Shown: piece by piece, positions 417 to 40,760 of the stretch
Numbering within the stretch: the first letter of the stretch is position 1
Layout: every line of letters starts with the position of its first letter
From: an uncultured Rivularia sp.
GTDB lineage: Bacteria > Cyanobacteriota > Cyanobacteriia > Cyanobacteriales > Nostocaceae
NCBI GenBank assembly: GCA_963665115.1
Contig: OY762007.1
Coordinates: forward strand, 2,624,001-2,688,000
DNA: 64,000 bases
Direction of reading: 5' to 3'
Notes under the pieces: model-generated
What the model was told of the DNA's origin: nothing
Seen by the model: only the letters and a program-made list of their open reading frames with translations
The model's database searches: none
Made by a program: the position numbers and the translations under genes

Positions 417-3269
417 ATGGCTGACGTTAAGTTAACAGGATTCGCATCGTTACCAGCCGATACTTTTGCGGAGGGTTCCCCAGCAGGTGCTGATATTTCT
501 GCAAATGGACGCACGGGGGGACCGTTTCCAGGACAGCCAGTTCAAGGTTTTAGTGGAGTACAGTTTGCACCGAATAATGACGGTTCTTACTGGTTTTTGT
601 CGGATAACGGTTTTGGCAATAAAAACAATAGTGCTGATTATCTATTGCGGATTTATCAGGTAAATCCCGATTTTCAGCAAGAAAACGCAGGGGATGGAAC
701 TGTTGAAGTTGAAGAGTTTATCCAACTTTCCGACCCCGATAATTTGATTCCTTTCGATATTGTTAACGAAGATTCTGGACAGCGTTTGTTAACTGGTGCT
801 GATTTCGATATCGAATCTTTTGTAATTGCCGATGATGGTTCGATTTGGGTAGGAGATGAATTCGGGCCGTTTTTACTTCACTTTGACTCCACGGGGAAGT
901 TGATTGAAGCACCGATTCCTACTCCGAATTTGGCAAGTGGGGAGGAACCATTAGTGCGATCGCCCCAAAATCCCGATGTACTTTTCAACACTCTAGATGG
1001 GAAACCACCGCTGGTTATAGCCCACCGTGGTGCTAGTGGAGAATTACCCGAACATACTTTAGCAGCTTACCGTCGTGCGATTACTCAAGGTGCTGATTTT
1101 ATCGAACCAGATTTAGTAATTACTAAAGATGGAGTGTTGATTGCGCGTCACGAACCAATTTTGGATGACACCACTAATATTGCTGAGGTGTTTGGCGAGG
1201 AGCGTAAATCTACAAAAAACCTTGATGGAGAAGAAGTTACAGCTTATTTTGCTGAAGATTTTACTTTAGAAGAAATCAAGCAGTTAAAAGCAGTTCAACC
1301 TCGGGATTTCCGCGATCAATCTTTTAACGGTGAATTTGAGATTCCTACTTTCCAAGAAGTTATCGAACTTGTACAAGAAGTAGAAGCGGAAACCGGGGAA
1401 AAAGTTGGGATTTATCCAGAGACGAAACATCCGACTTTCTTTGACGAACAAGGTTTGTCTTTGGAAGAACCTTTAATTACAACTTTGCAATCAACTGGTT
1501 TTACCGATCCAAGTAGAATCTTTATTCAGTCTTTTGAAGTTGCCAATCTGCTCGATTTACAAAATAATCTGCTTCCTGATGCTGGTTTGGATTTACCTTT
1601 AGTGCAGCTTTTCGGTGATGTCGAAGATGATTTTATCAACGAAAAAGGTGGTGGTTTCTCGGTACCTTACGATATTGTCGCTAATTTCAGCAACCCCGAT
1701 TTTGATGCAGCTGATGCAAAAGCTATTTACGGTGACTTTGTTAGTGTAGTTCCTGATTTTGGTAAAGATATTACGGGTGATGGTATTCCCGATACGACTT
1801 ATCAAGATTTAGCCACCAAGGAAATCTTTGATTACATCGGTGAAACTTACGCTGAAGGTGTGGGACCTTGGAAAAACAGTTTTGTGTTAAGAGAATCTAT
1901 AGATACTCCCGTCGATGCAGATGGTGATGGTAATGCAGAAATAACTACTCAATTAACCGGAGAAGTTCGCCCTTATGTAGAATGGGCGCATGATGCGGGA
2001 ATGCAGATTCATCCTTACACTTTACGAAATGAAGAACGTTATTTAACTTTAAACCCCGACGGTACGGTGCAAACTGCTGAAGGTGAATTTGAGCAGTTTA
2101 TTGAATTGGGTGTGGATGGTTTCTTTACTGATTTCCCCGAAAGCGGAAGAATTGCGGTTAATCAAGAAATAGTCCCTTCTAATCTTGCTTCATCTCGCGG
2201 TTTTGAAGGAATGGCTTTTAGTCCAGACCGCAAAACCTTATATCCTTTATTAGAAGGTGCGGTAGAAGGAGATCCAGATGATGCTTTGCGAATTTACAAA
2301 TTTGATGCGACATCCAGCAAGTATACTGACTTAGTTGGTTTCTATCAAACCTCAGTTCCCGGTCATGCAATTGGTGACTTTACCCCAATTAACGATTCGG
2401 AATTTTTGGTTATTGAAAGAGATGGTAAGCAAGGGGATGAAGCCGAGTTCAAGAAGATTTTCAAAGTTGATATTTCTAAAGTAGACGGAAACGGCTATGT
2501 AGAGAAATCAGAAGTCGCCGATTTGTTAAATATTCAAGACCCCAACGACCTCAACAACGACGGTGAAACAACTTTTACATTCCCCTTCGTCACCATCGAG
2601 GATGTTTTAGTTATCGACGAAAACACGATTTTGGTTGCTAACGATAATAATTATCCTTTCTCTACCGGACGCGATGAGGGTATCGATAACAATGAAGTCA
2701 TCCTCCTAGAGTTAGAGAAATCCTTAAATTTAGACCCTCTTTTGGGTAGAAGCGCGGTAGAGAGCGAAGAATCTAAACTTGTTGCGGGTACCGATGGTGA
2801 AGATTTATTCATCGCTGGAATCAACTTCGAGGGTGATAATAACAGCCTATTTGCTGGTGCTGGTAACGATGAGATTGATTTAGCTTTCGGTGGAAGCAAT
2901 AACCGAGTTGATGCTGGTAGCGGCGATGATATAGTTTACCTTGGCAATCAAAACCGCGTTCTTGGTGGTGAAGGAGACGATAAATTCTTTGCCTCCGGTG
3001 GTGATAATATCCTTTCTGGTGGTGACGGTTCAGACCAATTCTGGATTGTTAGCGGAGAGATTGTTGAAGCTGCAAATACCATTGTTGATTTTGAAATTGG
3101 TACGGATGTAATTGGTATTTTGGGTAGTGCTGGTTTGGGTATTGACTCAAGTTCTTTAAATCTGAATGAAATGGATGGTAATACTGAAATTAATTTCAAC
3201 GGTCAAACTTTGGCAATGCTTAATGGTGTGACTGGTTTGGATGTTGATAGCAGTATAGTATTTGCTTGA
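417..3269 (+). CDS. Phytase-like esterase with inserted glycerophosphodiester phosphodiesterase (GDPD) domain and RTX-type C-terminal tail
   Basis: Phytase-like motifs QGFSG, LSDNGFG, FDIES, GDEFGP, SRGFEG, NDNNYPFS flank a GDPD domain (IAHRGASG, PEHT, IEPD, GIYPETK, GFFTDFP). The C-terminus has GGxGxD repeats and ends in VFA. Confidence 0.85.
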   Translation: MADVKLTGFASLPADTFAEGSPAGADISANGRTGGPFPGQPVQGFSGVQFAPNNDGSYWFLSDNGFGNKNNSADYLLRIYQVNPDFQQENAGDGTVEVEEFIQLSDPDNLIPFDIVNEDSGQRLLTGADFDIESFVIADDGSIWVGDEFGPFLLHFDSTGKLIEAPIPTPNLASGEEPLVRSPQNPDVLFNTLDGKPPLVIAHRGASGELPEHTLAAYRRAITQGADFIEPDLVITKDGVLIARHEPILDDTTNIAEVFGEERKSTKNLDGEEVTAYFAEDFTLEEIKQLKAVQPRDFRDQSFNGEFEIPTFQEVIELVQEVEAETGEKVGIYPETKHPTFFDEQGLSLEEPLITTLQSTGFTDPSRIFIQSFEVANLLDLQNNLLPDAGLDLPLVQLFGDVEDDFINEKGGGFSVPYDIVANFSNPDFDAADAKAIYGDFVSVVPDFGKDITGDGIPDTTYQDLATKEIFDYIGETYAEGVGPWKNSFVLRESIDTPVDADGDGNAEITTQLTGEVRPYVEWAHDAGMQIHPYTLRNEERYLTLNPDGTVQTAEGEFEQFIELGVDGFFTDFPESGRIAVNQEIVPSNLASSRGFEGMAFSPDRKTLYPLLEGAVEGDPDDALRIYKFDATSSKYTDLVGFYQTSVPGHAIGDFTPINDSEFLVIERDGKQGDEAEFKKIFKVDISKVDGNGYVEKSEVADLLNIQDPNDLNNDGETTFTFPFVTIEDVLVIDENTILVANDNNYPFSTGRDEGIDNNEVILLELEKSLNLDPLLGRSAVESEESKLVAGTDGEDLFIAGINFEGDNNSLFAGAGNDEIDLAFGGSNNRVDAGSGDDIVYLGNQNRVLGGEGDDKFFASGGDNILSGGDGSDQFWIVSGEIVEAANTIVDFEIGTDVIGILGSAGLGIDSSSLNLNEMDGNTEINFNGQTLAMLNGVTGLDVDSSIVFA

Positions 3270-3304
3270 TTTTTGATAGATAGTTGTGTTGTCCGCGCAA
3301 TTAT

Positions 3305-3332
3305 GGAGACGTAGCACTGCTACGTCTCTACA
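3305..3332. repeat. REP-like palindrome GGAGACGTAGCACTGCTACGTCTCTACA (other copies 7159-7186, 10086-10113, 12862-12889, 45713-45740)
   Basis: Five near-identical hairpins, each just downstream of a stop codon, with a GTAG tetranucleotide at the stem foot on the minus strand. Confidence 0.85.
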
Positions 3333-3692
3333 CTGTGTACCTTCTATAAATAAACCAAAAACTAAAAGTAATATTTGATTGTTTTTTTCATATATATATA
3401 ATAGCTATATATATTTCATAATCACAAATTATAATTTATACGGCTATTTGATAAATGTTTCAATTATATAATAGTTAATTAAATTATAATGGCTCTTGTT
3501 TTTTTAATTAATTTTAAATCTAGCTCACATTCAACTGCTAAATAATCTTCAATCAACTACGCTTAACCGACTTTAAGTGCAATTGCACTATTTTTTATTG
3601 TTTTATTTATAAGATAATTTATTGCAATACTTTTAAAAATATTCCGAAAGTAAGAATAAATAAAAGCTATTTTCTAATATACAAAAACTATT

Positions 3693-3722
3693 TTTTACCA
3701 AAGCTTAACTAATATTTAACTC
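3693..3722 (+). promoter_or_regulatory. Putative Pho box
   Basis: TTTTACCA-aag-CTTAACTA-ata-TTTAACTC at 11-bp period, upstream of an alkaline phosphatase gene. Confidence 0.75.
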
Positions 3723-3845: not shown

Positions 3846-6800
3846 ATGGCTAACAATAATCACGTTATTTTCGTTCATCCAGATGGAACCAGTCCATCTC
3901 ATTACGCTTTAGCACGGTTTGTTCAAGAAGGTCCCGACGGTAGATTGAATTGGGACAAATTGGAAAATGCTGGTGTTTACTTAGGTCACATGGAAGATCA
4001 GCTTGGTGCTACTTCCAATGGTGGTGCAGTTACCCACGCTACTGGGGCTAAAGTCTATGCAGAGTCTTTTGGTTTAGAAGAAGATGGTTCTGAAATTAAC
4101 CCGCTATCTGGTAATGTCGGTAAAACCATCGTTCAGGAAGCGGTAGATGCTGGTAAAGTCACAGCTTTGGTACAGTCTGGAGCAATTTACGAACCTGGTA
4201 CCGCTGCATTTGTGGCTCAGGTTGGTGAGACTATTGATGAAGATGGCGATCGCACTCCTCCCCGTGGAAGAACTGCTGATATTACTAAACAGGTAATCGA
4301 ATCTGGGGTTGATTTTATTCTCGGTGGTGGTGAAGTTACTCTTTTACCTGAAGGTACCGAGGGTTTTCACGGTAGTGCCGAAGAACTAGACGAACTTGGT
4401 TCCCGCTTGCAGCGTCCTGATGAGAACTTAATCGAATTAGCCAAGAACAATGGTTATACGGTAGTTTATACCGAGCAAGAACTCAACGATTTACTCGACT
4501 CTACTAAATACCCCGAAGCACCAACTAAAGTTCTGGGTGTATTTGCTCCCATCCATACCTTTAACGACCGTCCCGAAGAGGTTTTAGAGGAAAGGGGACT
4601 ACCTTTGTATCTCGAAACCGCTCCTACTATTGCTGAGATGCTCGATGTTACTCAGCAGTTAATGGAAAAGCATCCTAATTTTGATAATGGTTCCATCGCG
4701 ATTGTAGAGGAAGAAGGAACCGATAATTTTGGTAATAATAACAATGCTTCAGGAACTCTCGAAGCAATGATTCGGGGTGATGCAGCTATTGGAGAAGCTC
4801 TCGAATTTGTTGATAAATATTCCAATACCTTAGTAATAACTGCTGCTGATAGCGATGCGGGTGGCTTGGAAGTACGCGACCCCCGCGACCCCCGAAGAAC
4901 CTGTAGGAACCATCAACCAAAATCCGACCACCGAACCGCGTCGGGTTCCCCTCGACGGTGTAGATGGTGCCAATACTTTACCATTTACTGCCGCACCAGA
5001 TACGAATGGTGATGTATTTAACTTCGGTGTCGCTTGGGCTGGTACGCCAGATTTTCCCGGTTCGATTGTTGCCAAAGCATCAGGACTGAATGCAGATAAA
5101 CTCCCTTCCACGGCAGATAATACCGTGATTTATGAGTTGATGTATGAAACCTTATTCGACACCGAACTTGAATCCCGCATCCCCGCACCCACACTAGCTC
5201 CGGAAGCCACAAAAGATACTGGTAACGTCATCTTTATTCATCCCGACGGAACGAGTCCTTCCCATTACATGGCTTTGCGAAACATTGATGAAGGTCCAGA
5301 CGGACGAATTAACTGGGATAAAATGTCCAATTCTGGGGTGTACCTCGGACATATGGAAGACCAGTTAACGGGTACTTCTAATGGGGGTGCGGTGACTCAT
5401 GCTAACGGAGTTAAGGTATTTAACGAATCCTTTGGTTTAGATGAAAACAACAATCAGATAACTCCGGCTTCTGGTAAAACAGGTTTTACTATATTGGAAG
5501 AAGCGATTGCAGCCGGAAAATCCACAGCGTTGATTCAATCTGGAGACTTGGGAGAACCGGGAACCGCTGCTTTTGCTGCTGCAACTACTAACCGCGACGG
5601 TGACGATATCCGCGCTCGTGATAAAGCTGCTGAAATCATCGAGCAAGTAATCCGTTCGGGAACCGATGTGATTATGGGTGGTGGGGAGTTGTATATGCTA
5701 CCCATCGGTACCACAGGCTTCCACGTTACCGCAGAATTAGACGCTTCGGAAACTCGTCCCGAGCGTCGTCCCAGCACTAACTTGATTGAACTAGCTGAGT
5801 CTTTGGGTTACACGGTGGTGTATACCGAAGACCAAATGAATCAAGCAGTTAATAGCGATACTCCCCCCGAAAAGCTGCTTGGTGTCTTCGCTGCTGACGA
5901 TACTTTTAACGACCAAACGGAAGAAGAACTTGGTCTGAATACCGATACTCCTTTACCGCTTTACGTTGAAACAGCCCCCACCGTAGCCGAGATGCTCGAT
6001 GCATCTTTAACAATAATCGATAAAGACCCCGACGGTTTCTTTGCGGTAGTCGAGGAAGAAGGTACAGATAACTTCGGTAATAACAACAATGCCGTCGGTA
6101 CAATTGAAGCCATGCGTCGCGGAGATGCAGCGATTGGGGAAGCCATAGACTACATTGATAATCAAGACCCCAACACGCTTTTAGTTACCGCAGCAGACAG
6201 CGATGGTGGTGGGTTAGAGGTGTTTCAATACAAACCTTACGACCGTCCAGAAGGTAACTTCGATGATGAAAATCCGGAATTATCATCTCAGCCAGAAGTT
6301 CCGTTTATCAACGTTAATCCCACTACCGAAAGAGACACCGATAATTTCCTTGATGGTGTTGATGGAAGTACAGCAAGTGAAGATAATCCTTGGGTACCAT
6401 TTTCAGCAAAAGATAGTATCGATGGAGAAATGGGTGACTTTGGTGTCGCTTGGGCTGGAAACTCCCGACTTCCCCGGTAGCATTGTCGCTAAAACCTACG
6501 GAATGAATGCCGATAAATTATCCAGCACCGTAGATAATACCGGAATTTACGATATTATGTACGAAACTTTGTTCGGTGTTACACCCGAAGAAGCAGCATC
6601 ACAAGAAAAAGAAACAGAAACAAATCTAGTTTCTGGAACTCCAGATGGAGATATTCTAATTTCCGGTATCGATGGATTTGCTGGAAATGGAAGTACTGTT
6701 TTCGCTGGTGCTGGTAACGATGAAATTGATTTAGTATTCGGTGGTGGAACCAAAAACCGCGTTGATGCTGGAAGCGGTGATGATATAGTTTATCTAAGCA

Positions 6801-7123
6801 ATCAAAACCGAGTTCTTGGTGGTGCAGGTGATGATAAATTCTTTGCAACTGGTGGTGAAAATATCATCTCTGGTGGTACAGGTGCAGACCAATTCTGGAT
6901 TGTCAGCGGAGAAATTCCCGAAGCTGCAAATACCATTGTTGATTTTGAAATTGGTTCCGATGTAATTGGTATTTTGGGTAGTGCTGGTTTGGGAATTGAT
7001 GCGAGTACTTTGGAATTAACCGAAATGGATGGTAATACTAAAGTTGCTTTTGGGGAAAATACTTTAGCAATGATTAACGGTGTTACTGGTTTAGATATTG
7101 ATAGTAGCGTTGTATTTGCTTGA
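3846..7123 (+). CDS. Tandem two-domain atypical alkaline phosphatase with RTX tail (~1090 aa after correcting two +1 frameshifts near 4890 and 6460)
   Basis: ORFs 3846-5012, 4855-6480 and 6263-7123 join into two homologous PhoA-fold domains (HPDG, TSNGG, EEEGTDNFGN, AADSD, WAGTPDFPGS) plus an RTX tail. There is an extra C in a C5 run and an extra A in ggaaactccc. Confidence 0.8.
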
Positions 7124-7483: not shown

Positions 7484-7524
7484 TTTAATCGAATATTTAT
7501 AATTAATTAACACAATCTTAAACT
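7484..7524 (+). promoter_or_regulatory. Putative Pho box
   Basis: TTTAATCG, ATTTATAA, ATTAACAC, CTTAAACT at 11-bp period. Confidence 0.6.
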
Positions 7525-7611
7525 TAAATTCATACCCTTAGATAGGTAATACTAATTAACTGTATTCCCACCTAATAATCTAGAAAAAATATACATAGGA
7601 ATTTACCTTAA

Positions 7612-10050
7612 ATGGCTAAGAACGTCATTATAATGATTGGCGACGGTATGGGCTGGGATATAGCTCGTGCAGCAGCAATTCAAAAACAAATTACTCAAGG
7701 TAAAACTGGTGCTACTCTCACCGATTTTTATACTGAAGGTAAGGGTAGTGGGTTAAGCTTCCAGGAATTAGATAATTACGCGATCGCAACAACCAGTGGA
7801 ACTTATATCGATGGTGATAAAAGTAATTCGGCATTAAAAGGTGATACTTTAGAGCGGGAAACTGGTGTTGCAGTTGTTCGTGAAGGATTTGAATCAGACA
7901 ATCTACCTGGTGAGGATGCGAATGGAGAATTTGATCCAGCCCAAGTAATCGGTTTTTTCCCCGAACTGCGTGAAGGTAGTATTGCGCCAATTTTGGGCGA
8001 ATTCGACCCCGGTTTTGATGAAAGACCTCTTTTTGCAAAAAACGAAGCAGGGGAATTAGTACAAGTTGGTGGATTTCTCAACGCTTACGATACTAGCAAA
8101 GGTCGGGATCTACCTTGGTTGAAAGATGAAGATCCTGACTATCCTAAAAACCTTTTCCCTGACTCTGCAAATACAGCAACTACTTTATATTCTGGAGTCA
8201 AAAGCTACTCCGGTGCGATTGGTGTTGATATTTATGAGGAAGATATTCAAACCATTGGTGAAAAAGCCAGAGAACAAGGTAAATCTTTTGGTGTTGTCAG
8301 TTCCGTTCCTTTCAACCACGCTACTCCTGCTTCTGCAATCGGGCACGTTAGTCAGCGCAACAAGCTAACCGAAACTTCCAGAGTAGAAAACTTTGAAGTT
8401 GTTCTGGATGAAAACGGTGTACCTCTCCACGAAGAACACGGTGACGGTAGTCATGAAGGTGAACCTGTATTTGAACTGGATGCAGATGGTAATCCCATTC
8501 CCGTTGAAGACGACAACATTCTTTACCAAATCCTCAACGAAACTCAACCTGAATTAGTTCTGGCTGGCGGACACCCCGACGGTCGTGGTGACGAACGCTA
8601 CATGGATTTGGAAACTCTAGAGCAACTCCGTAATGGTGAAACTGTTTACACTTTTACCGAGCGTGGTGAAAATGCTGCGGAGACTTTAGCAGAAGTTGCT
8701 TCAGAAATTGATGTTGAAGCAGGAGACAAATTATTTGGTCTTTATGGTGCTAGAGGGCAAGGTGGAAACCTTCCTTGGAGTACAGCCGATGGTGACTATA
8801 GTAATGCTGGTTTAAGCAGTCGTCTTGATGCAGTACGTCCTTTAGAAGAGGGAGAAACCGCAGAACAATTTATTGCTTCCGAGCAAGATGCAAATCCGAC
8901 TTTAGCTCAATTGACTGGCGCTGCTTTAGATGTTCTCGGAGATGACGAAGATGGTTTCTGGGTTTCCATCGAAGGTGGTGATATTGACTGGGCTGCTCAC
9001 GACAACAACCTAGACAATATGATCGGTGCAACTTTGAATTTTGCCGATTCAGTAGAAGTTGTTCAAGACTGGATTGCCGAAAATGGCGGTTATGAAGAGA
9101 ATTTACTTATCGTCACAGCCGATCACGACCACTATTTCACCCTTAACGAAGACTTCCCCGAACTATTACGAAAATATGGTGCAGAAGCTCTTACCACCTC
9201 AGTTGACGAGAACGGTAACGTTTTAGCTACCGAAGTTGACCAAGCTGGTGTAGCTTTAGAAGAACCACGAAAAGTTGATAACCTCGATCCAGATGCATCC
9301 GGACATTATTGGGGTAGCAATCCCGATGTCAAAGTCGGTTGGTCGCATCATACAACAATTCCCGTTCCCGTTTATTATCAAGGTGCGGGTAGCGAATATT
9401 TAGATAACTCTGTTGGTGAAGGCTTTGAGCAGTATGGCTTTGAAGTACCAGGAGTTGAAGGTTTAATCGACCAGGTTCATATCGCAGAAGCTCAATTCGC
9501 TGCTTTTGAAAATAGCACCACACCAACCCCAGATTCTGGTGGTAATAGCCCAAGCTTAGCTTCCGGAACCGCAGAAGCTGACATATTAATTGCAGGTATC
9601 GACTTCAAAGGAAATGGTGATACCGTTTTTGCTGGTGCTGGAGACGATGAAATTGATTTAGCCTTCGGTGGTGGAAGCAAAAACCGCGTTGATGCTGGAA
9701 GCGGTAATGATGTAATTTATTTGAGCAACCAAAACCGCGTAATTGGTGGTGAAGGTGACGATAAATTCTTTGCAACAGGTGGTGGTAATACTATTTCTGG
9801 TGGTGCAGGTGCAGACCAATTCTGGATTGTTAGCGGAGAAATTGTTGAATCTGCCAATACCATCGTTGATTTTGAAGCGGGTTCCGATGTAATTGGTATT
9901 TTGGGTAGTGCTGGTTTGGGAATTGATGCGAGTACTTTGGAATTAACCGAAATGGATGGTAGTACTAAAGTAGCATTTGGGGAAAATACTTTAGCAATGA
10001 TTAACGGTGTTACTGGTTTAGATATTGATAGTAGCGTTGTATTTGCTTGA
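7612..10050 (+). CDS. phoA: Alkaline phosphatase (PhoA family) with RTX tail
   Basis: Canonical motifs IGDGMG, PDSA, HATPA, EGGDIDWAAH, TADHDH and HTTIPVP, followed by a GGxGxD repeat tail. Confidence 0.85.
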   Translation: MAKNVIIMIGDGMGWDIARAAAIQKQITQGKTGATLTDFYTEGKGSGLSFQELDNYAIATTSGTYIDGDKSNSALKGDTLERETGVAVVREGFESDNLPGEDANGEFDPAQVIGFFPELREGSIAPILGEFDPGFDERPLFAKNEAGELVQVGGFLNAYDTSKGRDLPWLKDEDPDYPKNLFPDSANTATTLYSGVKSYSGAIGVDIYEEDIQTIGEKAREQGKSFGVVSSVPFNHATPASAIGHVSQRNKLTETSRVENFEVVLDENGVPLHEEHGDGSHEGEPVFELDADGNPIPVEDDNILYQILNETQPELVLAGGHPDGRGDERYMDLETLEQLRNGETVYTFTERGENAAETLAEVASEIDVEAGDKLFGLYGARGQGGNLPWSTADGDYSNAGLSSRLDAVRPLEEGETAEQFIASEQDANPTLAQLTGAALDVLGDDEDGFWVSIEGGDIDWAAHDNNLDNMIGATLNFADSVEVVQDWIAENGGYEENLLIVTADHDHYFTLNEDFPELLRKYGAEALTTSVDENGNVLATEVDQAGVALEEPRKVDNLDPDASGHYWGSNPDVKVGWSHHTTIPVPVYYQGAGSEYLDNSVGEGFEQYGFEVPGVEGLIDQVHIAEAQFAAFENSTTPTPDSGGNSPSLASGTAEADILIAGIDFKGNGDTVFAGAGDDEIDLAFGGGSKNRVDAGSGNDVIYLSNQNRVIGGEGDDKFFATGGGNTISGGAGADQFWIVSGEIVESANTIVDFEAGSDVIGILGSAGLGIDASTLELTEMDGSTKVAFGENTLAMINGVTGLDIDSSVVFA

Positions 10051-10120
10051 TATTTGATAGATAGTTGCGTTGTCAGCGCAACTATGGAGACGTAGCACTG
10101 CTACGTCTCTACATTATTTG

Positions 10121-18800: not shown

Positions 18801-19429
18801 ACAAAATATGTATTACTTAATTCTAAAGGTGACAAAATTAAGCGATTAACCTCACTTTGATAAGAATTACCAGTAGCAGCTTCAATTAGCATTCCTAGCA
18901 AAAGATAATTAGTATTGGAGTAAAAGAATGATTCACCCGGAGCAAAATAAGCATCTTCTCCAGCAACATAATTTTTCAGAATTGCTTCCCTACTTCTATC
19001 AATATCAGCACCCTCAAGTTCTATAGCAAATTCATCTAAGCCAAATTGGGGGTTATTTGTATAGCTAAAAATTCCGCTAGTATGATTTAATAACTGCTCG
19101 ATGCTAATATCCTTAGCATTGGGAATATTATTAATAATAGAATCGGGTAGCCATTTATCTAAAGTATCTTCTAAACTGAGTTTTTCCTCTTCCAGCAACT
19201 TGAGAATAGTTGCTGATGTAAACGTTTTACTGATACTACCAATTTTAAATAAATCATCTTGATTTACTGGATTTTTAGTTTCCAAATTAGCAACCCCACT
19301 ACCACCATACCAAGTACCATCAGAAGTGATAACAGCCACTGTAGCACCGGGAATTTGTGTACTTTCCACAGCAGAATCGAGACTTGCTTGTAACTGTTGA
19401 GCTAGTTCGGGGGAAATATTTTGATTCAT
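15883..19429 (-). CDS. Fusion protein: beta-lactamase-like serine hydrolase + RTX repeats + PAF-acetylhydrolase-like alpha/beta hydrolase + RTX tail (~1180 aa; +1 frameshift at 17398-17402)
   Basis: SISK, YSN and HDG motifs in the first domain. FPEPTGEYSVGT...EDPDDNRELTVKVWYP reads through after removing one base. The second domain has FSHGFG, GYSLGG, NLDG and HQSFID. Confidence 0.8.
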
Positions 19430-19790: not shown

Positions 19791-19820
19791 TTTAATTTAT
19801 ATTTAATATTCCCTTAACAA
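19791..19820 (+). promoter_or_regulatory. Putative Pho box
   Basis: TTTAATTT-ata-TTTAATAT-tcc-CTTAACAA at 11-bp period. Confidence 0.55.
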
Positions 19821-24083: not shown

Positions 24084-24113
24084 TTTAACCTAAATATACC
24101 CTTTCCTTAACCT
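24084..24113 (+). promoter_or_regulatory. Pho box
   Basis: TTTAACCT-aaa-TATACCCT-ttc-CTTAACCT; the last unit equals the consensus. Confidence 0.85.
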
Positions 24114-32153: not shown

Positions 32154-32435
32154 CTACGAAAAACCCCATGTCCATTTTTAACAACGGTTAAACTATTAAA
32201 TAGATTGTCCCAAATCAAAAAACGGTAAAAAAACTTACGTGTGTATTTACTCTACCCTTGGCAAATGTTAGGTTTTTTCACTACTATGTTTTTCAGTAAT
32301 TACCCGAATAGCATATGTTCCTATAACTAGGTATTAATAACATTCAGCAGTTACTACTAAAATTAACCTTTAGGTTGTCTTTTATTCTTTATTAACACAC
32401 TTACAACCCGTTAATAACTTTATAGATATACTTTG

Positions 32436-33239
32436 ATGGAAACAATTTATGACAGCGGCAACCCGAATGATACTGATATTATGACCGCACTTTTACAAAT
32501 TGGCGATCGCACTATAAATGTTGATGAAATTCTTCCGTTGCTCAAGCAGTACGGAATGCTGCCTCAGTTGCTTAGAGAAATAGTCATTGATGATGCAACT
32601 GCTTCTATAGCGCTTTCCGAAGAAGAAGTTCAGGAAGCGTATAAACAATTTTATCAACAGCAGCAGCTAGGAGATGAGGAGCAATTACAAGCTTGGCTAA
32701 AATCCCGTGGTTTGGAGCGCGAACAGCTTGATTATTTGGTTACTCGCACCCTTCGCGTAGAAAAATTTAAGCAAGATACCTGGGGAACAAAGGTAGAGTC
32801 ATATTTTCTTCAACGTAAGGAAAAGTTAGATAAAGTAATTTATTCGCTGATTCGGGTTAATGATATTGCCGTTGCCCAAGAATTGTATTTTCGGGTACAA
32901 GAAGATGAGCAGCCTTTTGCAGAACTTGCTCGCGAGTATTCTAAAGGGCCAGAAGCGCAGACGGGTGGTTTAATTGGCCCGGTTGAATTGGGGGTTCCCC
33001 ATCCGGTTTTAGCGAAAATGTTACTTAAGTCTCAACCAGGACAAGCTTTACCCCCAACTCGCTTGGGAGATTGGATTTTAATCGTCCGTTTGGAACAATT
33101 TCTGCCAGCGCAGCTAGATTCAGCCACCCACAAGCGACTATTAAACGAGCAATTTGAAACTTGGCTCTCTGGAGAAATATCTTCTGCTATCAAGAATAGT
33201 CAGTTATCGGCGGATAAAAGTGGCTCTACTGAGGATTAA
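32436..33239 (+). CDS. Parvulin-like peptidyl-prolyl isomerase associated with cyanobacterial T1SS
   Basis: YFLQRK..LDKVIYSLIR, AQELYFR, FAELAREYS.GPEAQTGGLIGP. The true start may be the ATG at 32481. Confidence 0.85.
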   Translation: METIYDSGNPNDTDIMTALLQIGDRTINVDEILPLLKQYGMLPQLLREIVIDDATASIALSEEEVQEAYKQFYQQQQLGDEEQLQAWLKSRGLEREQLDYLVTRTLRVEKFKQDTWGTKVESYFLQRKEKLDKVIYSLIRVNDIAVAQELYFRVQEDEQPFAELAREYSKGPEAQTGGLIGPVELGVPHPVLAKMLLKSQPGQALPPTRLGDWILIVRLEQFLPAQLDSATHKRLLNEQFETWLSGEISSAIKNSQLSADKSGSTED

Positions 33240-33243: not shown

Positions 33244-33478
33244 ATTTTAGATTTTAGATTTTGGATTTTGGATTGAAATTTAAACAGTTGCCGTAGGACT
33301 AAAAATAAAAAGTATCTTATTCTTTATCAGTTGCATTATTACCTAAGCTAGCAAATACGCTTGCGCGTTTTCAAATAATCCAAAATCCAAAATTCTTAAG
33401 TTTTCAGGTGTATTTATAGGATTAATCCAAAATCCGTTAGCGTAGCGTGTCCGAAGGACATAATCCAAAATCCAAAAT
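33244..33478. repeat. Heptamer tandem repeats (ATTTTGG/CCAAAAT) with an inserted 26-nt element at 33435-33460
   Basis: (ATTTTRG)x4, then inverted AATCCAA arrays. CGTTAGCGTAGCGTGTCCGAAGGACA lies between two TAATCCAAAATC. Confidence 0.8.
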
Positions 33479-33482
33479 TCCC

Positions 33483-36400
33483 ATGACTTATACAACAACT
33501 AACATCCAAGAATTTTTAGCGGAGATTGCTCCTTTTAACCAGCTGCAACCTCCGGTAATGGCGAAGCTTCTAGAAAAAGCACAGCTGTTCCGCTACCGCA
33601 TGGGACAGGTGATTTTGGCTCGGGAAAAAATGCCCGCTCAAATATCCGTCCTTTTTTCCGGACAAGTGCGTTTATTGGGTTACGAACCTCAAACCCAAAT
33701 ACCCGTAACTTTGGCAAGACTGCAACCCGGAGAAATTATGGGTTGGCTGGAAACAGTGCGGGGAGTACCTGGCTCTACTGCTATAGCTTCGACGGAAGTT
33801 ATTTGTATTAACTTTAGTGCTGCGGATTTTCTAGCTTTATTAGGACAAGAAGAAAGCTTTGGCACATATTTTTACAATCGTGTGGGAATAGTTGAAGTAT
33901 TTGAATTGCTGTCGAAGCAACTAGGTACTCATGCAAATAATCAGTTAATTTTACAAGCATCTGACTGCGCTAATTGCAAGGAATTAACGTTAAAGATTTT
34001 TGATCAAACACAAATTGCTAATTTAACAAATCGTGATGCTGCCAACCAGTTAAACCCCGATTATGTGTGGTTGGTGAGTGGAGGAACGGTTTCTCCTGAA
34101 TTAATCGGCAATCGTTTTGATGAAGATGAGTCTTTACCAAGAGGAAGTCGGGTTCGTTTGTTGGGAGTAAACGAAAATGTCTTTTCACCATTAGAAGACA
34201 CATTGCAAGATACTACCGAAGAAGCGCAACAAGTACATATCGCTGAAGTAATACCTGCTGGAGAATCTTCGACAGGATTCGACGATATTCCCTACGCACC
34301 CAACGAACCACCAGAAGCGGAAGGTAGTTTTAACAAACAAAATGCTGCTGCTGCGATTAAATATCCCCACGTGCGCGGTAGCGGCGAAGTAAATGCAATT
34401 TTGGCTTGTTTCCAGATGTTGAGCAAGCATTTAAATATGCCCTTCCGCAAGGAAGTTATTCGTAAAGTTTTAATAAATCAAAAAAAGCGCACGGGTTCGC
34501 TGTCGTTGCAGCAGTGCGGTGCTGTAGCTCAATTAGTAGGTTTAAGACCCCAACTTGTGGGCGTTCCCTCCGGTGCGTTAGGAAGAATTGAACCTCCTGC
34601 AATAGTGCAATGGCAAGATAGTTATGCCGTACTTTACGAAATTACCAACAAAACCATAGTACTCGGCGTACCGGAATCGGGAATCCTGCGTCAAAATACC
34701 TCAGATGTAGCCCAAGTGCTGCTTCAGTCGCAACCTCAAACCGAAGAGCAACCACAAGATGCTATTCCCATATTGCTGCTGCAAGCCACCTCAGAAACCC
34801 CGCAGCAAAAATTCGGGTTAAGTTGGTTTTTACCATCTTTGAATAAGTATAAAGGCGTACTTGTAGAAGTTTTTATTGCTTCTTTCTTCTTCCAGTTGTT
34901 TGGTTTGGCTAATCCCCTTGTTACCCAGGTAATTATTGATAAAGTTATTAACCAAAACAGTCCAGATACGCTGCAAGTTCTGGGTGTATTTCTACTAGTA
35001 ATTGCAGTATTTGAAGCAATTATTGGTACCATCCGGACTTATTTGTTTGTTGATACCACCAACCGCATTGATTTAGCTCTAGGTTCGGAAATTATCGACC
35101 ACTTACTGCGGCTACCATTACGTTACTTTGAAAAGCGACCCGTAGGTGAACTTTCTACCAGGGTGAACGAATTAGAAAAAATTCGTAGCTTTTTAACAGG
35201 AACCGCTTTAACAGTGGTGTTAGATGCGGTTTTCTCCGTGATCTACATAGTGGTAATGTTTATTTATAGCTGGCTACTGGCTCTCGTAGCCTTGGGGACA
35301 TTACCGCTATTCGCCATCCTTACCTTTGTGGTTTCTCCCATCGTGCGGCGACAGCTACGGTTTAAAGCAGAACGTAACGCCGAAGCACAATCCCACTTAG
35401 TAGAAATTTTATCGGGTATTCAGACAGTTAAAGCGCAAAATATTGAATTGCGATCGCGCTGGCAATGGCAAGAACGTTATGCTCGTTATGTCAGTGCTGG
35501 TTTCAAAAACGTACAGACTTCTACTGCGGCAGGTTCTACCAGTGGTTTTCTCAACAAGCTTTCCGGCTTACTCGTGCTGTGGGTAGGAGCTTATTTAGTA
35601 TTAGACAACAAACTAACTTTGGGACAGTTAATTGCCTTTCGTATTATTGCCGGTTATGTGACTTCTCCCTTGTTACGTCTTACCCAGCTATGGCAGAATT
35701 TCCAGGAAACCGCTTTATCCTTGGAACGCTTAAGCGATATTATCGACTCACCCCAAGAAGCCAGCGAAGAAGATAAAGGTAACATTCCCATGCCAATGAT
35801 TGAAGGGGCTGTTACATTTGATGACGTTTCCTTCCGCTTCAAACCCACCGGTCCGATGCAGTTAAATAACATTAGTTTAGAATTTCCGCCCGGTGTATTT
35901 GTTGGTGTCGTCGGACAAAGTGGTTCCGGCAAAAGTACGTTGATGAAGCTGGTACCGCGTCTTTATCCTTTAGAATCAGGGCGCATTCTCATTGACGGTT
36001 ACGATGTCAATAAAGTAGAACTTTACTCCCTCAGACAGCAAGTAGGAATTGTGCCGCAAGATACACTGCTTTTTGAAGGTTCGGTACAGGAAAATATTGC
36101 TTTAAACTTTCCTGATGCTACTCCAGAGGAGATTATCGAAGCTGCTAAAATTGCAGTAGCACATGAATTTATCATGGAACTGCCGAATGGTTACAATAGT
36201 AGAGTCGGCGAACGAGGTAGCGCTTTATCCGGCGGACAGCGACAAAGAGTCGCAATTGCGCGTACAATTTTGCAAAATCCACGCTTATTAATTCTTGATG
36301 AAGCTACCAGCGCCCTCGACTATGAGTCAGAACGTCAGGTATGCTTAAATTTAGCAGAAGCCTTCAAAGGGCGAACCGTTTTCTTTATTACACACCGCTT

Positions 36401-36536
36401 AAGTACAATCCGTAATGCCGATATTATCTTGATGTTAGATAAAGGTTGTGTGGTAGAACAAGGAACCCATCAAGAACTAATGTCACTAAAAGGGCGTTAC
36501 TACTGTCTCTATCAGCAACAAGAAGCACAAATTTAA
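33483..36536 (+). CDS. hlyB: Type I secretion ABC transporter (HlyB family) with N-terminal cNMP-binding and C39-like domains
   Basis: GQSGSGKST, LSGGQRQR and LILDEATSALD; ABC TM domain. The C39-like region lacks the QxxxxDCG motif. Start is set at MTYTT because the upstream GTG lies inside a repeat. Confidence 0.9.
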   Translation: MTYTTTNIQEFLAEIAPFNQLQPPVMAKLLEKAQLFRYRMGQVILAREKMPAQISVLFSGQVRLLGYEPQTQIPVTLARLQPGEIMGWLETVRGVPGSTAIASTEVICINFSAADFLALLGQEESFGTYFYNRVGIVEVFELLSKQLGTHANNQLILQASDCANCKELTLKIFDQTQIANLTNRDAANQLNPDYVWLVSGGTVSPELIGNRFDEDESLPRGSRVRLLGVNENVFSPLEDTLQDTTEEAQQVHIAEVIPAGESSTGFDDIPYAPNEPPEAEGSFNKQNAAAAIKYPHVRGSGEVNAILACFQMLSKHLNMPFRKEVIRKVLINQKKRTGSLSLQQCGAVAQLVGLRPQLVGVPSGALGRIEPPAIVQWQDSYAVLYEITNKTIVLGVPESGILRQNTSDVAQVLLQSQPQTEEQPQDAIPILLLQATSETPQQKFGLSWFLPSLNKYKGVLVEVFIASFFFQLFGLANPLVTQVIIDKVINQNSPDTLQVLGVFLLVIAVFEAIIGTIRTYLFVDTTNRIDLALGSEIIDHLLRLPLRYFEKRPVGELSTRVNELEKIRSFLTGTALTVVLDAVFSVIYIVVMFIYSWLLALVALGTLPLFAILTFVVSPIVRRQLRFKAERNAEAQSHLVEILSGIQTVKAQNIELRSRWQWQERYARYVSAGFKNVQTSTAAGSTSGFLNKLSGLLVLWVGAYLVLDNKLTLGQLIAFRIIAGYVTSPLLRLTQLWQNFQETALSLERLSDIIDSPQEASEEDKGNIPMPMIEGAVTFDDVSFRFKPTGPMQLNNISLEFPPGVFVGVVGQSGSGKSTLMKLVPRLYPLESGRILIDGYDVNKVELYSLRQQVGIVPQDTLLFEGSVQENIALNFPDATPEEIIEAAKIAVAHEFIMELPNGYNSRVGERGSALSGGQRQRVAIARTILQNPRLLILDEATSALDYESERQVCLNLAEAFKGRTVFFITHRLSTIRNADIILMLDKGCVVEQGTHQELMSLKGRYYCLYQQQEAQI

Positions 36537-36563: not shown

Positions 36564-36676
36564 AGGTCAAAGGTCAAAGGTCAAAGGTTAAAGGTTTCAT
36601 TTATAACTCACTACTCCTAACTCCCAACTCCCAACTCATTACTCCCAACTCCTAACTCCTAACTCCTAACTCTTAA
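36564..36676. repeat. STRR-type heptamer arrays (AGGTCAA)n and (ACTCCYA)n
   Basis: Tandem 7-mers read directly between hlyB and hlyD. Confidence 0.9.
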
Positions 36677-36682
36677 ATTCCC

Positions 36683-39083: not shown

Positions 39084-40760
39084 ATGCTCGAATCTAAACA
39101 AGTTAACTCGGACGAAAATATCCAATACAACTTTGCTTACCTAATCGACACATCCGATAGTGTAGGAACAGATACGCTTCAGCAAGCTAAACAAGCTTAC
39201 ATCAATTTAACTAAATCCTTAGTCGATAGAGGAATTGCAGATGTCAGTAACTTCGGAATAATTCCTTTTGGTTCTAATGCATACCTTGAAACACCAGTAA
39301 ATGCCACCGAGGCAATCTCAACAATTCAAGGCTTGTCTGGCAATGGTTTTACCAATTTCAATGCAGCACTTAAAACAGCAAATCAATTTTTCTCTACCGC
39401 ACCCTCTGAAGCAAGAAATATAGCCTATTTTATCTCTGATGGATATTCAACCACAGGAGGAAGTTTTGAAGATTCTGCAAAAGCTCTTAAAGCAGTAGCT
39501 GACGTGCAAGCTTATGGTTTTGGGGCTGCGAATATTCAAGAATTGAGGATTATAGATTCAGATCAACCTCATATAGTCCCCGAAGTATCACAACTAGCTA
39601 CTACATTTGTTGCTAGTACAGATGGTTTGGTTGCAAACAAGCCTCAAGATTTTGATTCCAAAACGGACGGAGACAACGAGATTGAAATCGCATCTGCTCC
39701 TCCAGATGAAGCTGTCAAAGAAAACTCATCGGATACTACCAGTCAGCAAGTCTTAAAGAGAGACGAAGAAAAATTGGTTGATGATTCTGTTGTCGAGGTT
39801 CCACCTACATCTGAGAAAATAGAAATTGATAATATAGTCAACGTAGGTGCCAACATCGATCCATTGACTGGTGGAGAGCTTCCCGTTGTAAGTATTGAAG
39901 ATATTGAAATCGTTGAAGGTAATTTAGGAACCAGCATCGCTCAATTTACGGTTAATTTATCTTCACCTGCTACCGAGGAGATTGAATTTTTATACCAAAC
40001 TGTCGATGGAAGCGCGATTTCTGCTTCTGACTATAATCAAGCATCCGGACAGATTACCATTCCAATTGGTGAAACCAGCACCCAAATTGATGTTGAAGTA
40101 AATGGGGATAGCGAAGTTGAGCCTGCCGAAGAATTCACTCTGAATCTAAAAGGGTTATCTTCAGCAACTTTTGCAAACAACAAAGCAGAATATAGCAAAG
40201 TTGCCGTTATCAGAAACGATGATGTTGTACAAAATTCACCAATTGTTCCTCAAAACGAAGCGCCAAATATTCTTGATAAGAATCTACTTGATTTAGAATC
40301 CTTCGCTGGGGAGATAGCAATTAACTTCACTTTAGATAGAGAAGCATTGTATGACAATACCGTTGGTTTTTACAAAATTGAAAACGCAGAAGGAACTATT
40401 ACAGATCCAGTAACCGGAAATCAATTTAAACCAAGTGATGGGCAAGCTTATGCTGAACTAGCGATTGAGCTTCGCCAACCCGAATTGGAATTAAGCGTAG
40501 ATAGTCAGAGTTCTATAACTATTCAAGATACCCTCTCAGGAGGATATCTCTATGCTCCCTTCCTCATCGCTGATGGAGATATTGATAGTCTTGAGGGAGA
40601 TTTCAACCAAGTTTACTTCTCGTTTGCTCAAGCCAATTCCGATAAAACCGAGCATATTCGTTCGTTAGGAAACAACACCTTCGGTTTTGAAGATTTAGCG
40701 AATGGTGGTGATAATGACTTTGACGATATGGTTGTCGGCATTGAGATTGCACCTGTTTAG
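39084..40760 (+). CDS. VWA + Calx-beta + DUF4114-type domain protein
   Basis: LIDTSDS MIDAS, TNFNAAL and FISDG; VSIED..IVEGN..FTVNLS...DGSA...DY...NGDSEVE..EEF; FGFEDLANGGDNDFDD. Confidence 0.85.
   Translation: MLESKQVNSDENIQYNFAYLIDTSDSVGTDTLQQAKQAYINLTKSLVDRGIADVSNFGIIPFGSNAYLETPVNATEAISTIQGLSGNGFTNFNAALKTANQFFSTAPSEARNIAYFISDGYSTTGGSFEDSAKALKAVADVQAYGFGAANIQELRIIDSDQPHIVPEVSQLATTFVASTDGLVANKPQDFDSKTDGDNEIEIASAPPDEAVKENSSDTTSQQVLKRDEEKLVDDSVVEVPPTSEKIEIDNIVNVGANIDPLTGGELPVVSIEDIEIVEGNLGTSIAQFTVNLSSPATEEIEFLYQTVDGSAISASDYNQASGQITIPIGETSTQIDVEVNGDSEVEPAEEFTLNLKGLSSATFANNKAEYSKVAVIRNDDVVQNSPIVPQNEAPNILDKNLLDLESFAGEIAINFTLDREALYDNTVGFYKIENAEGTITDPVTGNQFKPSDGQAYAELAIELRQPELELSVDSQSSITIQDTLSGGYLYAPFLIADGDIDSLEGDFNQVYFSFAQANSDKTEHIRSLGNNTFGFEDLANGGDNDFDDMVVGIEIAPV

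What the first reader, a model, noticed from the sequence alone, without database searches (positions are those of the whole stretch)
417..40760. A ~40-kb organophosphate-mining exoenzyme island with its own type I secretion system
Seen in sequence: eight large acidic proteins lack N-terminal signal peptides, end in RTX or DUF4114-type tails, and cluster with PPIase-hlyB-hlyD. Pho-type boxes precede the five phosphoesterase genes. Established: T1SS cargo uses C-terminal signals, and GDPD, PhoA, beta-propeller phytase and EEP domains release phosphate from diesters, monoesters, phytate and nucleic acids. Inference: the enzymes form a relay (GDSL and alpha/beta hydrolases deacylate phospholipid, GDPD gives glycerol-3-P, PhoA gives Pi, with phytate and DNA branches). 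The non-catalytic VWA/Calx-beta and CAP proteins may be Ca-dependent scaffolds holding it in the sheath, like a cellulosome for phosphorus.
Basis: partly seen in the sequence, partly recalled or inferred. Interest (0 to 1): 0.85.

Follow-up and report, generated by a model that had tools for sequence, protein, structure and literature searches.

The report
Secreted phosphatase array beside type-I exporter
A Rivularia-like cyanobacterium keeps five phosphate-releasing enzyme genes, each behind a predicted phosphate-starvation switch, next to a common protein-export pump that likely secretes them, and some of the enzymes end in a predicted sugar-binding tail that would hold them on the cell's sheath.

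Summary
The cluster is real. Eight large acidic proteins lack signal peptides and end in RTX-type (4) or DUF4114 (4) tails beside ppiC-hlyB-hlyD. SphR/Pho boxes precede the five phosphoesterase genes (4 of 5 beat shuffles; conserved in relatives) but not the exporter, GDSL, CAP, VWA or hydrolase genes. Six reading-frame breaks are most likely assembly errors. Phosphoesterases flank the exporter in 12 of 17 genus relatives, but in only 2 of 51 loci outside the genus, and one complete relative has them unlinked. So this is a common cyanobacterial RTX exporter (TolC elsewhere) with a genus-specific phosphorus cargo array, not a dedicated system. The cellulosome idea is unsupported. The DUF4114 tail is predicted to fold like the Ca-dependent lectin LecB (Z 10.1) and swaps with RTX tails on near-identical enzymes, so each enzyme likely carries its own export and anchor module. 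One 'phosphatase' is a tandem PhoA fold lacking all three zinc-binding histidines. T1SS export of a cyanobacterial phosphatase was already proposed (Sll0654). The scan earlier noted only the nested GDPD module on other DNA. Verdict: new variant of a known kind.

The parts
204..244 (+). Predicted SphR/Pho box (3-4 repeats, 11-bp period) upstream of GDPD
   Evidence: 16/24, shuffle p 0.012; 14-17/24 in six relatives
417..3269 (+). GDPD nested in a phytase-like (PF13449) propeller, RTX-type tail, 950 aa
   Evidence: HRG, ExD and RHE motifs
3682..3722 (+). Predicted Pho box upstream of the tandem PhoA-like gene
   Evidence: rank 4 of 6600; p 0.028; 16-18/24 in five relatives
3846..7123 (+). Two PhoA-fold domains lacking the three Zn-binding His, plus RTX-type tail; about 1090 aa; breaks near 4889 and 6459 are most likely assembly errors
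   Evidence: intact 1088-1133 aa in G013, G017, G009
7495..7535 (+). Predicted Pho box (weakest of the five) upstream of PhoA1
   Evidence: 15/24, p 0.127; same site at -117 in G005 and G017
7612..10050 (+). Classical PhoA with intact metal-ligand motifs, RTX-type tail, 812 aa
10466..15590 (-). Passenger block: Uma2, two near-identical Ser/Thr kinases, 409-aa membrane protein; not cargo
   Evidence: variably present in relatives
15883..19429 (-). Serine hydrolase (beta-lactamase family)-RTX-alpha/beta hydrolase (PAF-AH-like)-RTX fusion, about 1180 aa; break near 17398 is most likely an assembly error; no Pho box
   Evidence: intact 1182 aa in G141
19791..19820 (+). Predicted Pho box upstream of PhoA2
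   Evidence: 16/24, p 0.021; -152 to -155 in four relatives
19946..22144 (+). Classical PhoA with DUF4114 tail, 732 aa
22593..23762 (+). Standalone GDSL hydrolase, a copy of the phytase-inserted GDSL with at most a decayed DUF4114 remnant; no box, no signal peptide
   Evidence: 75% DNA identity to 27255-28109; tail HMM E 0.018
24084..24113 (+). Best Pho-box match of the genome, upstream of the EEP-phytase fusion
   Evidence: 20/24, rank 1 of 6600, p 0.001; 19-20/24 in five relatives
24204..29036 (+). EEP + phytase-like propeller + beta-propeller phytase with a GDSL domain inserted + DUF4114 tail, about 1600 aa; breaks near 26345 and 27995 are most likely assembly errors
   Evidence: halves match Bacillus phytase 23-221 and 227-342; intact 1599-1614 aa in four relatives
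29666..31540 (+). CAP-SdrD_B-DUF4114 protein, 624 aa, no Pho box
   Evidence: tail modelled
32433..33239 (+). PpiC-type PPIase-like gene of the conserved T1SS operon
33447..36536 (+). HlyB-type T1SS ABC transporter (cNMP-C39-like-ABC), 1029 aa
36683..38234 (+). HlyD membrane-fusion protein; break near 37149 is most likely an assembly error
   Evidence: intact 514-516 aa in 7 of 7 relatives
39084..40760 (+). VWA (MIDAS)-Calx-beta-DUF4114 protein, 558 aa, no Pho box

Best explanation
This is an array of phosphoesterase genes, likely switched on one by one by SphR under phosphate starvation, whose products are likely exported through the neighbouring general-purpose HlyB-HlyD pump by swappable C-terminal tails and then likely release phosphate outside the cell. 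Shown: domain content, no N-terminal signal, two tail types, Pho-box matches, synteny, tail swapping. Inferred steps: (1) SphR binds the five boxes, while the exporter is constitutive or otherwise controlled; (2) HlyB-HlyD with the single distant TolC export the unfolded acidic, Cys-poor proteins, which fold in extracellular Ca2+, with the PPIase possibly assisting; (3) PhoA cleaves monoesters, GDPD glycerophosphodiesters, the propeller phytase phytate, and the fused GDSL probably deacylates (lyso)phospholipids; (4) the DUF4114 tail, predicted to be a LecB-like Ca-dependent lectin, would tie each enzyme that carries it to sheath sugars, like a carbohydrate-binding module and without a scaffold; CAP and VWA proteins would be matrix or adhesion cargo of the same pump. 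My odds: P-regulated 0.9, T1SS-exported 0.8, through this pump 0.6, lectin anchoring 0.5, lipid relay 0.4.
For: Pho boxes only before the five phosphoesterase genes, conserved in position in relatives. The weighted scan also ranked sites beside an OprB porin and between a metallophosphoesterase and PhoX as 2 and 3. Enzymes start directly at the catalytic domain, while the genome's other PhoA-like paralog and PhoX carry lipoprotein/Tat signals. Phosphoesterases lie upstream of ppiC in 12 of 17 genus relatives and 6 of 7 near-complete ones. In another family (G021) a different set (PhoD-RTX, PhoX-RTX, choice-of-anchor-I/phytase-like/GDSL-DUF4114) sits at the same position; G030 has an LTD-EEP-RTX protein there. 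Tail swapping: G017 has two PhoA copies 86% identical over 632 aa, one with an RTX and one with a DUF4114 tail; the nuclease/5'-nucleotidase fusion ends in RTX in G008 and DUF4114 in G148. Tail model pLDDT 92; best match LecB/PA-IIL, Z 10.1, rmsd 2.5 over 100 residues; the top 9 Foldseek rows are LecB-family lectins, best E 0.004; ED-x3-GGD-x-D-x2-D is invariant or nearly so in 25 tails. DUF4114 binds mannose in Acanthamoeba (PMC11934332) and is tied to Ca/EPS binding in Myxococcus (PMC9109919). Synechocystis Sll0654 phosphatase and the DUF4114 protein Sll0723 are exoproteins listed as putative T1SS substrates (PMC11424642 supplement). GDPD-phytase and DUF4114 genes are P-induced in Nodularia (PMC9846622).
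Against: No expression, secretion or activity data exist for this organism. The genome has a second HlyB above the TIGR01846 cut-off and further HlyB-like ABCs, so another pump could carry the cargo. G142 keeps GDPD/PhoA and the EEP-phytase far from ppiC; G014 and G006 show no phosphoesterase within 20 kb. 0 of 40 sampled loci outside the genus had a phosphoesterase neighbour. The three pstS controls scored only 14, 14 and 11 of 24 and phoX 13, so the box scan misses some expected targets; the PhoA1 box is not significant alone (p 0.127). DUF4114-to-LecB similarity is remote (10% identity; HMM E 0.03; no Foldseek row at E<=0.001), and a shared fold does not prove sugar binding. A DUF4114 end has not been shown to act as a T1SS signal. 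The tandem PhoA-like protein lacks three canonical Zn ligands, so its activity is unproven.
Confidence: 0.65

Rival explanations
1. Cellulosome-like complex with a dedicated exporter: CAP and VWA/Calx-beta proteins are scaffolds that assemble the enzymes into a relay in the sheath.
For: CAP-DUF4114 and VWA-DUF4114 are the most constant neighbours of the exporter in the genus; VWA has a MIDAS motif. LecB-type lectins oligomerise through a C-terminal carboxylate (recalled), so terminal tails could pair.
Against: No cohesin/dockerin or repeated docking module among the Pfam hits. CAP and VWA lack Pho boxes and stay with the exporter when the phosphatases are absent or moved (G006, G142). The exporter is order-wide. 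The large multi-domain fusions already join activities without a scaffold.
Confidence: 0.1
2. Duplication nursery: the genes cluster because shared tails seed local duplication and recombination; they are P-regulated exoenzymes, but use any of the cell's T1SS pumps, and the neighbourhood has no functional meaning.
For: RTX tails of GDPD, tandem PhoA-like and PhoA1 are 82-89% identical in DNA; membership varies in every relative; G142 is split; two more DUF4114 phosphatases lie 60-100 kb away; several HlyB paralogs exist.
Against: Different phosphatase families occupy the same slot in G021 and G030; 16 of 40 outside loci also have RTX/DUF4114 neighbours, so the slot attracts this pump's likely cargo.
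Confidence: 0.2
3. DUF4114-tailed proteins are not T1SS cargo: they leave by vesicles, lysis or another route, and the tail is only a Ca-binding or folding module.
For: They have no RTX repeats; most Anabaena exoproteins lack canonical signals (bioRxiv 10.64898/2026.06.08.730779, passages); DUF4114 is N-terminal or internal in Myxococcus PilY1 and in a few G000 proteins.
Against: The tail swaps with an RTX tail on near-identical enzymes. DUF4114 proteins flank the exporter in G021, G024, G029 and in 3 of 40 further loci. Proteins are acidic and nearly Cys-free.
Confidence: 0.1
4. Decaying cluster: the six breaks, one in hlyD, are real and the system is inactive in this strain.
For: Contigs of run X1 agree with the window at 4889, 6459, 17398 and 37149.
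Against: Runs X2 and X3 lack the extra bases at all six places, with no other letter differing in the covering contigs; all lie in short homopolymer runs; relatives are intact and have breaks of their own elsewhere. X1 may be the assembly's own source, and it too lacks the bases at 27995.
Confidence: 0.04

Closest known systems
Synechocystis PCC 6803 SphR regulon phoA (sll0654)-nucH (sll0656) and its T1SS (Sll1181 HlyD; Sll1180 and Slr1270 recalled)
   Same: SphR-boxed, signal-peptide-less, very large acidic phosphatase and nuclease found outside the cell; Sll0654 is listed as a putative T1SS substrate (PMC1906773 passages; PMC11424642 supplement).
   Different: There it is one operon with an atypical (5'-nucleotidase-type) PhoA. 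Here five separately boxed genes of other families (classical PhoA, His-less PhoA, GDPD, EEP-phytase) sit beside the exporter. I did not test orthology to Sll1180 directly.
RTX exoenzymes exported by T1SS (review PMC3034196)
   Same: HlyB/HlyD pump, C-terminal RTX tails; the review already predicts RTX phytases, phosphatases, nucleases and beta-lactamases, and RTX abundance in cyanobacteria (passages).
   Different: Half the cargo ends in DUF4114 with no RTX repeats; RTX tails are short (one Pfam stretch near the cut-off); TolC is unlinked.
LecB/PA-IIL, BclA, CV-IIL, RS-IIL Ca-dependent lectins; DUF4114 of Acanthamoeba MBP and Myxococcus PilY1.1
   Same: Predicted beta-sandwich fold (Z 10.1) and the acidic E-D..D-x-D-x-N-D loop.
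   Different: About 150 aa with helical insertions, 10-15% identity, fused as a terminal tail of enzymes; sugar binding and oligomer state untested.
Classical PhoA (E. coli alkaline phosphatase)
   Same: PhoA1 and PhoA2 keep all metal-ligand motifs; the tandem protein keeps the fold (Foldseek E 3.5e-22, TM about 0.6), Ser, Arg and Asp/Glu ligands.
   Different: No signal peptide; C-terminal tail. The tandem protein has Asn, Ser and (by my alignment) Asp at the His331, His370 and His412 positions.
Cellulosome
   Same: Many secreted hydrolases for one nutrient class, gene clustering, calcium-binding modules.
   Different: No cohesin/dockerin or scaffoldin; it resembles the free-enzyme-plus-binding-module strategy instead.

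Membership tests
Type I secretion system (HlyB type) | ABC transporter of the HlyB subfamily | tested here: met
   TIGR01846 746.3 bits, cut-off 725.55
Type I secretion system (HlyB type) | Adjacent HlyD membrane-fusion protein | tested here: met
   Two halves hit TIGR01843, each below cut-off because of the break; intact in relatives and in runs X2, X3
Type I secretion system (HlyB type) | TolC-like outer-membrane channel | tested here: met
   One gene in the genome (PF02321, about 8.14 Mb), unlinked
Type I secretion system (HlyB type) | Cargo export depends on this pump | not testable with these tools
   needs mutants
Dedicated (phosphorus-specific) exporter | Exporter restricted to, and co-regulated with, the phosphatase genes | tested here: not met
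   ppiC orthologue in 109 of 121 genomes; 2 of 51 outside loci with a phosphoesterase; no Pho box on ppiC, hlyB, hlyD
T1SS substrates | No N-terminal signal peptide; acidic, Cys-poor | tested here: met
   Hydropathy and twin-Arg check against controls (SignalP not available); pI; Cys counts
T1SS substrates | RTX repeats near the C-terminus | tested here: inconclusive
   Present in 4 of 8 (PF00353 27-74 bits, cut-off 23); the other 4 end in DUF4114
SphR (Pho) regulon | Three 8-bp CTTAACCT-like repeats with 3-bp linkers upstream | tested here: met
   4 of 5 significant against shuffles, all 5 conserved in relatives; consensus from PMC1906773
SphR (Pho) regulon | Induction by P starvation and SphR binding | not testable with these tools
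   needs transcript data and a binding assay
LecB/PA-IIL lectin family (DUF4114 tail) | Beta-sandwich fold with acidic Ca-binding loop | tested here: met
LecB/PA-IIL lectin family (DUF4114 tail) | Ca-dependent monosaccharide binding, oligomer completing the site | not testable with these tools
   needs binding assays
Classical PhoA (7612, 19946) | D51, S102, H/D153-T155, E322, D327, H331, D369, H370 motifs (numbering recalled) | tested here: met
   His412 and Arg166 seen by eye in the sequences; NCBIfam PRK10518 below cut-off
Classical PhoA (tandem gene 3846-7123) | Zn ligands His331, His370, His412 | tested here: not met
   Asn, Ser and probably Asp instead; 119 of 120 listed homologs share EEEG[TS]DNxxN
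Beta-propeller phytase | Full-length similarity to Bacillus phytase | tested here: met
   Halves match 23-221 (E 2e-23) and 227-342 (E 9e-30), with GDSL inserted between; activity untested
NucH-type extracellular nuclease (island EEP) | NucH/ExeM-type EEP with LTD domain | tested here: inconclusive
   Island EEP has EEP motifs but no LTD, no blast hit to the NucH-like EEP at 1e-20 and no solved relative
Cellulosome-like complex | Scaffoldin with repeated cohesins and enzyme-borne dockerins | tested here: not met
   no such Pfam hit among 28 ORFs scanned
Horizontally acquired genomic island | Deviant composition, mobility genes, absence from relatives | tested here: not met
   GC 0.31-0.47 around a genome mean of 0.379; no integrase or transposase among 28 ORFs; syntenic in the genus; tRNA flank not tested

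The most novel reading that the evidence does not exclude
DUF4114 is a dual-purpose C-terminal module of cyanobacteria: an RTX-free type I export signal that folds in extracellular Ca2+ into a LecB-like lectin and glues phosphate-mining enzymes to the sheath. Rivularia uses it, with swappable RTX tails, to build a sheath-bound and a diffusible copy of the same enzymes, including a zinc-free (Ca/Mg) PhoA-fold phosphatase whose three His ligands are replaced by oxygen donors.
Probability: 0.3. Interest if true: 0.78.

Novelty: new variant of a known kind. Interest (0 to 1): 0.52.

Why it matters
How signal-peptide-less phosphatases leave cyanobacterial cells and stay near them is open; T1SS export is only putative even in Synechocystis. 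This locus gives natural test pairs: near-identical enzymes with either tail, boxed and unboxed neighbours, one pump. DUF4114 occurs in 92 of 121 genomes of the order, so a role as export and anchor tail would annotate hundreds of giant proteins. Rivularia dominates some P-limited calcifying mats, where phosphatase activity is proposed to drive phosphate deposits (bioRxiv 10.1101/818625, passages); sheath- and hair-bound phosphatase activity of Rivulariaceae is recalled from older work that my searches did not retrieve. A His-less PhoA, widespread in cyanobacteria (1220 hits), would be a new metal solution in a textbook enzyme fold if it is active.

Tried and rejected
Complex prediction of the CAP tail with the EEP-phytase tail plus four Ca: no verdict (score 0.00 in both runs), not used as evidence. 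Expression: no RNA holder listed. The first Pho-box matrix used weights from a recalled consensus, set after I had seen the sites, so I repeated the test with the unweighted published consensus and shuffles. PDB search with the island EEP found nothing at E<=1. One search was a mis-chosen stretch and uninformative. Pseudogene reading rejected. 'Toxin' reading rejected: hits to RTX haemolysin models are far below cut-off and cover only the repeats. 'Beta-lactamase' is a family label only; the best NCBIfam hits (AmpH, class C) are far below cut-off. Horizontal-island reading rejected. Not in print as far as searched: searches found no paper on this cluster, on DUF4114 as an export tail, or on the His-less PhoA; the library lacks most subscription journals, so this is weak. 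Scan look-ups returned nothing. Genus genomes G145, G010 and G011 were dropped from the linkage count (contig ends within 3 kb); the ppiC regions of G015, G144, G002, G146, G147 and G001 were not fetched. One supplement of PMC11424642 (a scanned PDF) and bioRxiv supplements could not be read and may bear on T1SS substrate lists.

Full report
Setting. The window is G000:C1:2624001-2688000 of an 8.69-Mb single-contig genome. The closest named loci for the VWA gene are Rivularia and Calothrix records at 65-87% identity, so this is a Rivularia-like cyanobacterium.

Observation. Between 417 and 40760 Pfam gives: GDPD inside a phytase-like propeller; three ORFs of a tandem alkaline-phosphatase-like gene; PhoA; on the minus strand Uma2, two kinases, a membrane protein and a serine-hydrolase/alpha-beta-hydrolase pair; a second PhoA; GDSL; three ORFs of an EEP/phytase-like/phytase/GDSL gene; CAP; PpiC; HlyB; two HlyD pieces; VWA-Calx-beta. 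That makes eight large cargo proteins, four with RTX-type and four with DUF4114 ends. They are acidic, almost Cys-free and have no hydrophobic or twin-Arg N-terminus, unlike four controls from the same genome. Eight of 45 RTX/DUF4114 loci lie in 41 kb; 0 of 20,000 random placements match this, though local duplication inflates it.

Frame breaks. Six breaks (4889, 6459, 17398, 26345, 27995, 37149) sit in short homopolymer runs. Contigs of runs X2 and X3 lack the extra bases at all six and show no substitutions there; X1 agrees with the window at four, is mixed at one and lacks the bases at the sixth. All these runs are from one study. Relatives have intact genes of about 1090, 1182, 1600 and 516 aa. 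The breaks are most likely assembly errors.

Pho boxes. Su et al. (PMC1906773, passages) give three CTTAACCT repeats with 3-bp linkers. Unweighted, the five phosphoesterase genes score 16, 16, 15, 16 and 20 of 24, against 11-14 for the seven other island genes; 75, 75, 317, 75 and 1 of 6600 upstream regions reach those scores. Dinucleotide shuffles give p 0.012, 0.028, 0.127, 0.021 and 0.001. The sites recur at the same distances in relatives. Against: three pstS genes score 14, 14 and 11, and phoX 13.

Is the exporter 'its own'? HlyB passes TIGR01846, but so does a second ABC, and more HlyB-like genes exist; the single TolC is far away. The ppiC orthologue is found in 109 of 121 genomes of the order. 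In 40 sampled loci outside the genus, 34 had the hlyB orthologue beside ppiC, 16 had RTX or DUF4114 neighbours, and none of the 22 candidate proteins was a phosphoesterase (about 14 kb upstream, six loci cut by contig ends, only RTX/DUF4114/acidic ORFs scanned). In an earlier set of 11, G021 has PhoD-RTX, PhoX-RTX and a choice-of-anchor-I/phytase-like/GDSL-DUF4114 giant upstream, and G030 an LTD-EEP-RTX protein: 2 of 51 in all. Within the genus, 12 of 17 relatives with at least 9 kb of upstream sequence have a recognised phosphoesterase there; G012 (LTD-DUF4114 giant, only its first 424 aa scanned) and G004 are unresolved; G142, G014 and G006 have none. G142 is near-complete and keeps GDPD/PhoA and the EEP-phytase at two distant loci, tails intact. 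So the pump is a general RTX exporter whose upstream slot became a phosphorus array in this genus and, with other enzymes, in at least one other family.

Modularity. Membership and order vary in every relative; PhoD, PhoX, NucH-like, 5'-nucleotidase and nucleoside-hydrolase domains join the array or the fusions elsewhere. Tails are exchanged: G017 carries two PhoA copies 86% identical over 632 aa, one RTX- and one DUF4114-tailed; a nuclease/5'-nucleotidase fusion ends in RTX in G008 and in DUF4114 in G148. This is my main ground for treating DUF4114 as functionally equivalent to an RTX export tail (inference).

The DUF4114 tail. An alignment of 25 tails has an invariant E-D-x3-G-G-D-x-D-x2-D core. 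Its profile hits only PA-IIL/LecB in the PDB, weakly (E 0.03-0.06). The AlphaFold model (pLDDT 92) matches LecB at Z 10.1, rmsd 2.5 over 100 residues, then thrombocorticin at 9.1, with unrelated folds at 6.5 or less. The top nine Foldseek rows are LecB-family lectins, none at E<=0.001. The link between DUF4114 and these lectins is already in print: the Acanthamoeba domain binds mannose (PMC11934332, passages), and the Myxococcus PilY1.1 domain needs its Ca site for EPS-dependent motility (PMC9109919, passages; PMC13190605, passages). What I add is its use as a swappable terminal tail on cyanobacterial phosphatases. It would give each enzyme its own sheath anchor, so no scaffold is needed. No cohesin or dockerin was found, and CAP and VWA stay with the pump when the enzymes are absent (G006, G142).

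Enzymes. PhoA1 and PhoA2 keep the classical motifs (E. coli numbering recalled). GDPD, GDSL (GDSL, GxN, DxxH), SxxK/YxN and GxSxG motifs are present. The phytase halves match Bacillus phytase 23-221 and 227-342 with the GDSL domain inserted between. This fusion under the strongest box, and GDSL fusions in G021, support a lipid-deacylation step; the best NCBIfam hit is a lysophospholipase, far below cut-off. The alpha/beta hydrolase has no box, and the EEP substrate is unknown; the NucH-like gene lies at 2.758 Mb, outside the island. The tandem gene at 3846-7123 has the PhoA fold (model pLDDT 77; Foldseek E 3.5e-22 to E. coli AP) and keeps Asp, Ser, Arg and Glu positions, but has Asn and Ser at His331 and His370 and, by my manual alignment, a conserved Asp at His412. 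119 of the 120 listed homologs share the altered motif, so it is a conserved subfamily, not decay. An all-oxygen site suggests Ca or Mg; activity is untested.

What is known. RTX phytases, phosphatases and nucleases were predicted in 2010 (PMC3034196, passages). Synechocystis Sll0654 and Sll0723 are putative T1SS substrates (PMC11424642, passages and supplement search; DUF4114 in Sll0723 from PMC12058595, passages). Anabaena All0275 and All2843 are exoproteins (PMC4390845, passages); GDPD-phytase, DUF4114, all2843, nucH and a Trichodesmium GDPD rise under P limitation (PMC9846622, PMC7564538, PMC6411698, passages). An earlier scan note (e1-3140688) called the nested GDPD a common module, which fits. 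Ten searches found no description of this array, of DUF4114 as export tail, or of the His-less PhoA; coverage is limited.

Verdict. Observation confirmed; interpretation partly supported. It works like a T1SS-fed, Pho-regulated exoenzyme set with per-enzyme binding tails. It is not a cellulosome, not a mobile island and not a dedicated exporter. New variant of a known kind; interest 0.52, rising to about 0.78 if the DUF4114 export-and-anchor role and a zinc-free PhoA are confirmed.

Noticed in passing
window 3846-7123; G000:C1:7447629-7448975 (L072): His-less PhoA-fold subfamily, widespread in cyanobacteria (1220 hits at E<=1e-30), with a signal-peptide-bearing single-domain paralog in the same genome; candidate zinc-free alkaline phosphatase.
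   Followed up: partly
window 41417-42160: 247-aa ORF with no Pfam or NCBIfam hit that travels with ppiC-hlyB-hlyD in other families too (G019, G024, L107, L108, L118; 35-45% identity); possible T1SS accessory.
   Followed up: no
L038:433-5920 (G021): PhoD and PhoX, normally Tat-exported (recalled), appear here as RTX-tailed proteins just upstream of the T1SS operon; possible re-routing of Tat enzymes.
   Followed up: partly
G000:C1:2723316-2726534 and 2758215-2765235: Two more DUF4114-tailed phosphoesterases (choice-of-anchor-I/phytase-like; NucH-like/choice-of-anchor-I/5'-nucleotidase, split into two ORFs) outside the island; their orthologs adjoin the array in G005, G148 and G008.
   Followed up: partly
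window 44526-45606: Glyoxalase-fold gene (4-hydroxyphenylpyruvate dioxygenase-like, my label) split in two ORFs, intact at 352-384 aa in most relatives; probably another assembly break, not checked against reads.
   Followed up: partly
window 11332-14277: Two tandem Ser/Thr kinases, 86% identical in DNA over 1.4 kb, with divergent membrane-spanning C-termini, inserted in the array.
   Followed up: no
window about 3290-3335, 7140-7190, 10085-10120, 29320-29420, 36570-36650: Short intergenic elements with very high contig depth and many joints, i.e. repeats dispersed through the genome; several follow cargo stop codons.
   Followed up: no
L008:3975-5567 (G005): Inosine-uridine nucleoside hydrolase with the same RTX-type tail inside the array.
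   Followed up: no
G000:C1:2315473-2316060 and 7653852-7654476: Strong Pho-box matches beside an OprB/SLH porin and between a metallophosphoesterase and phoX; likely further regulon members.
   Followed up: partly
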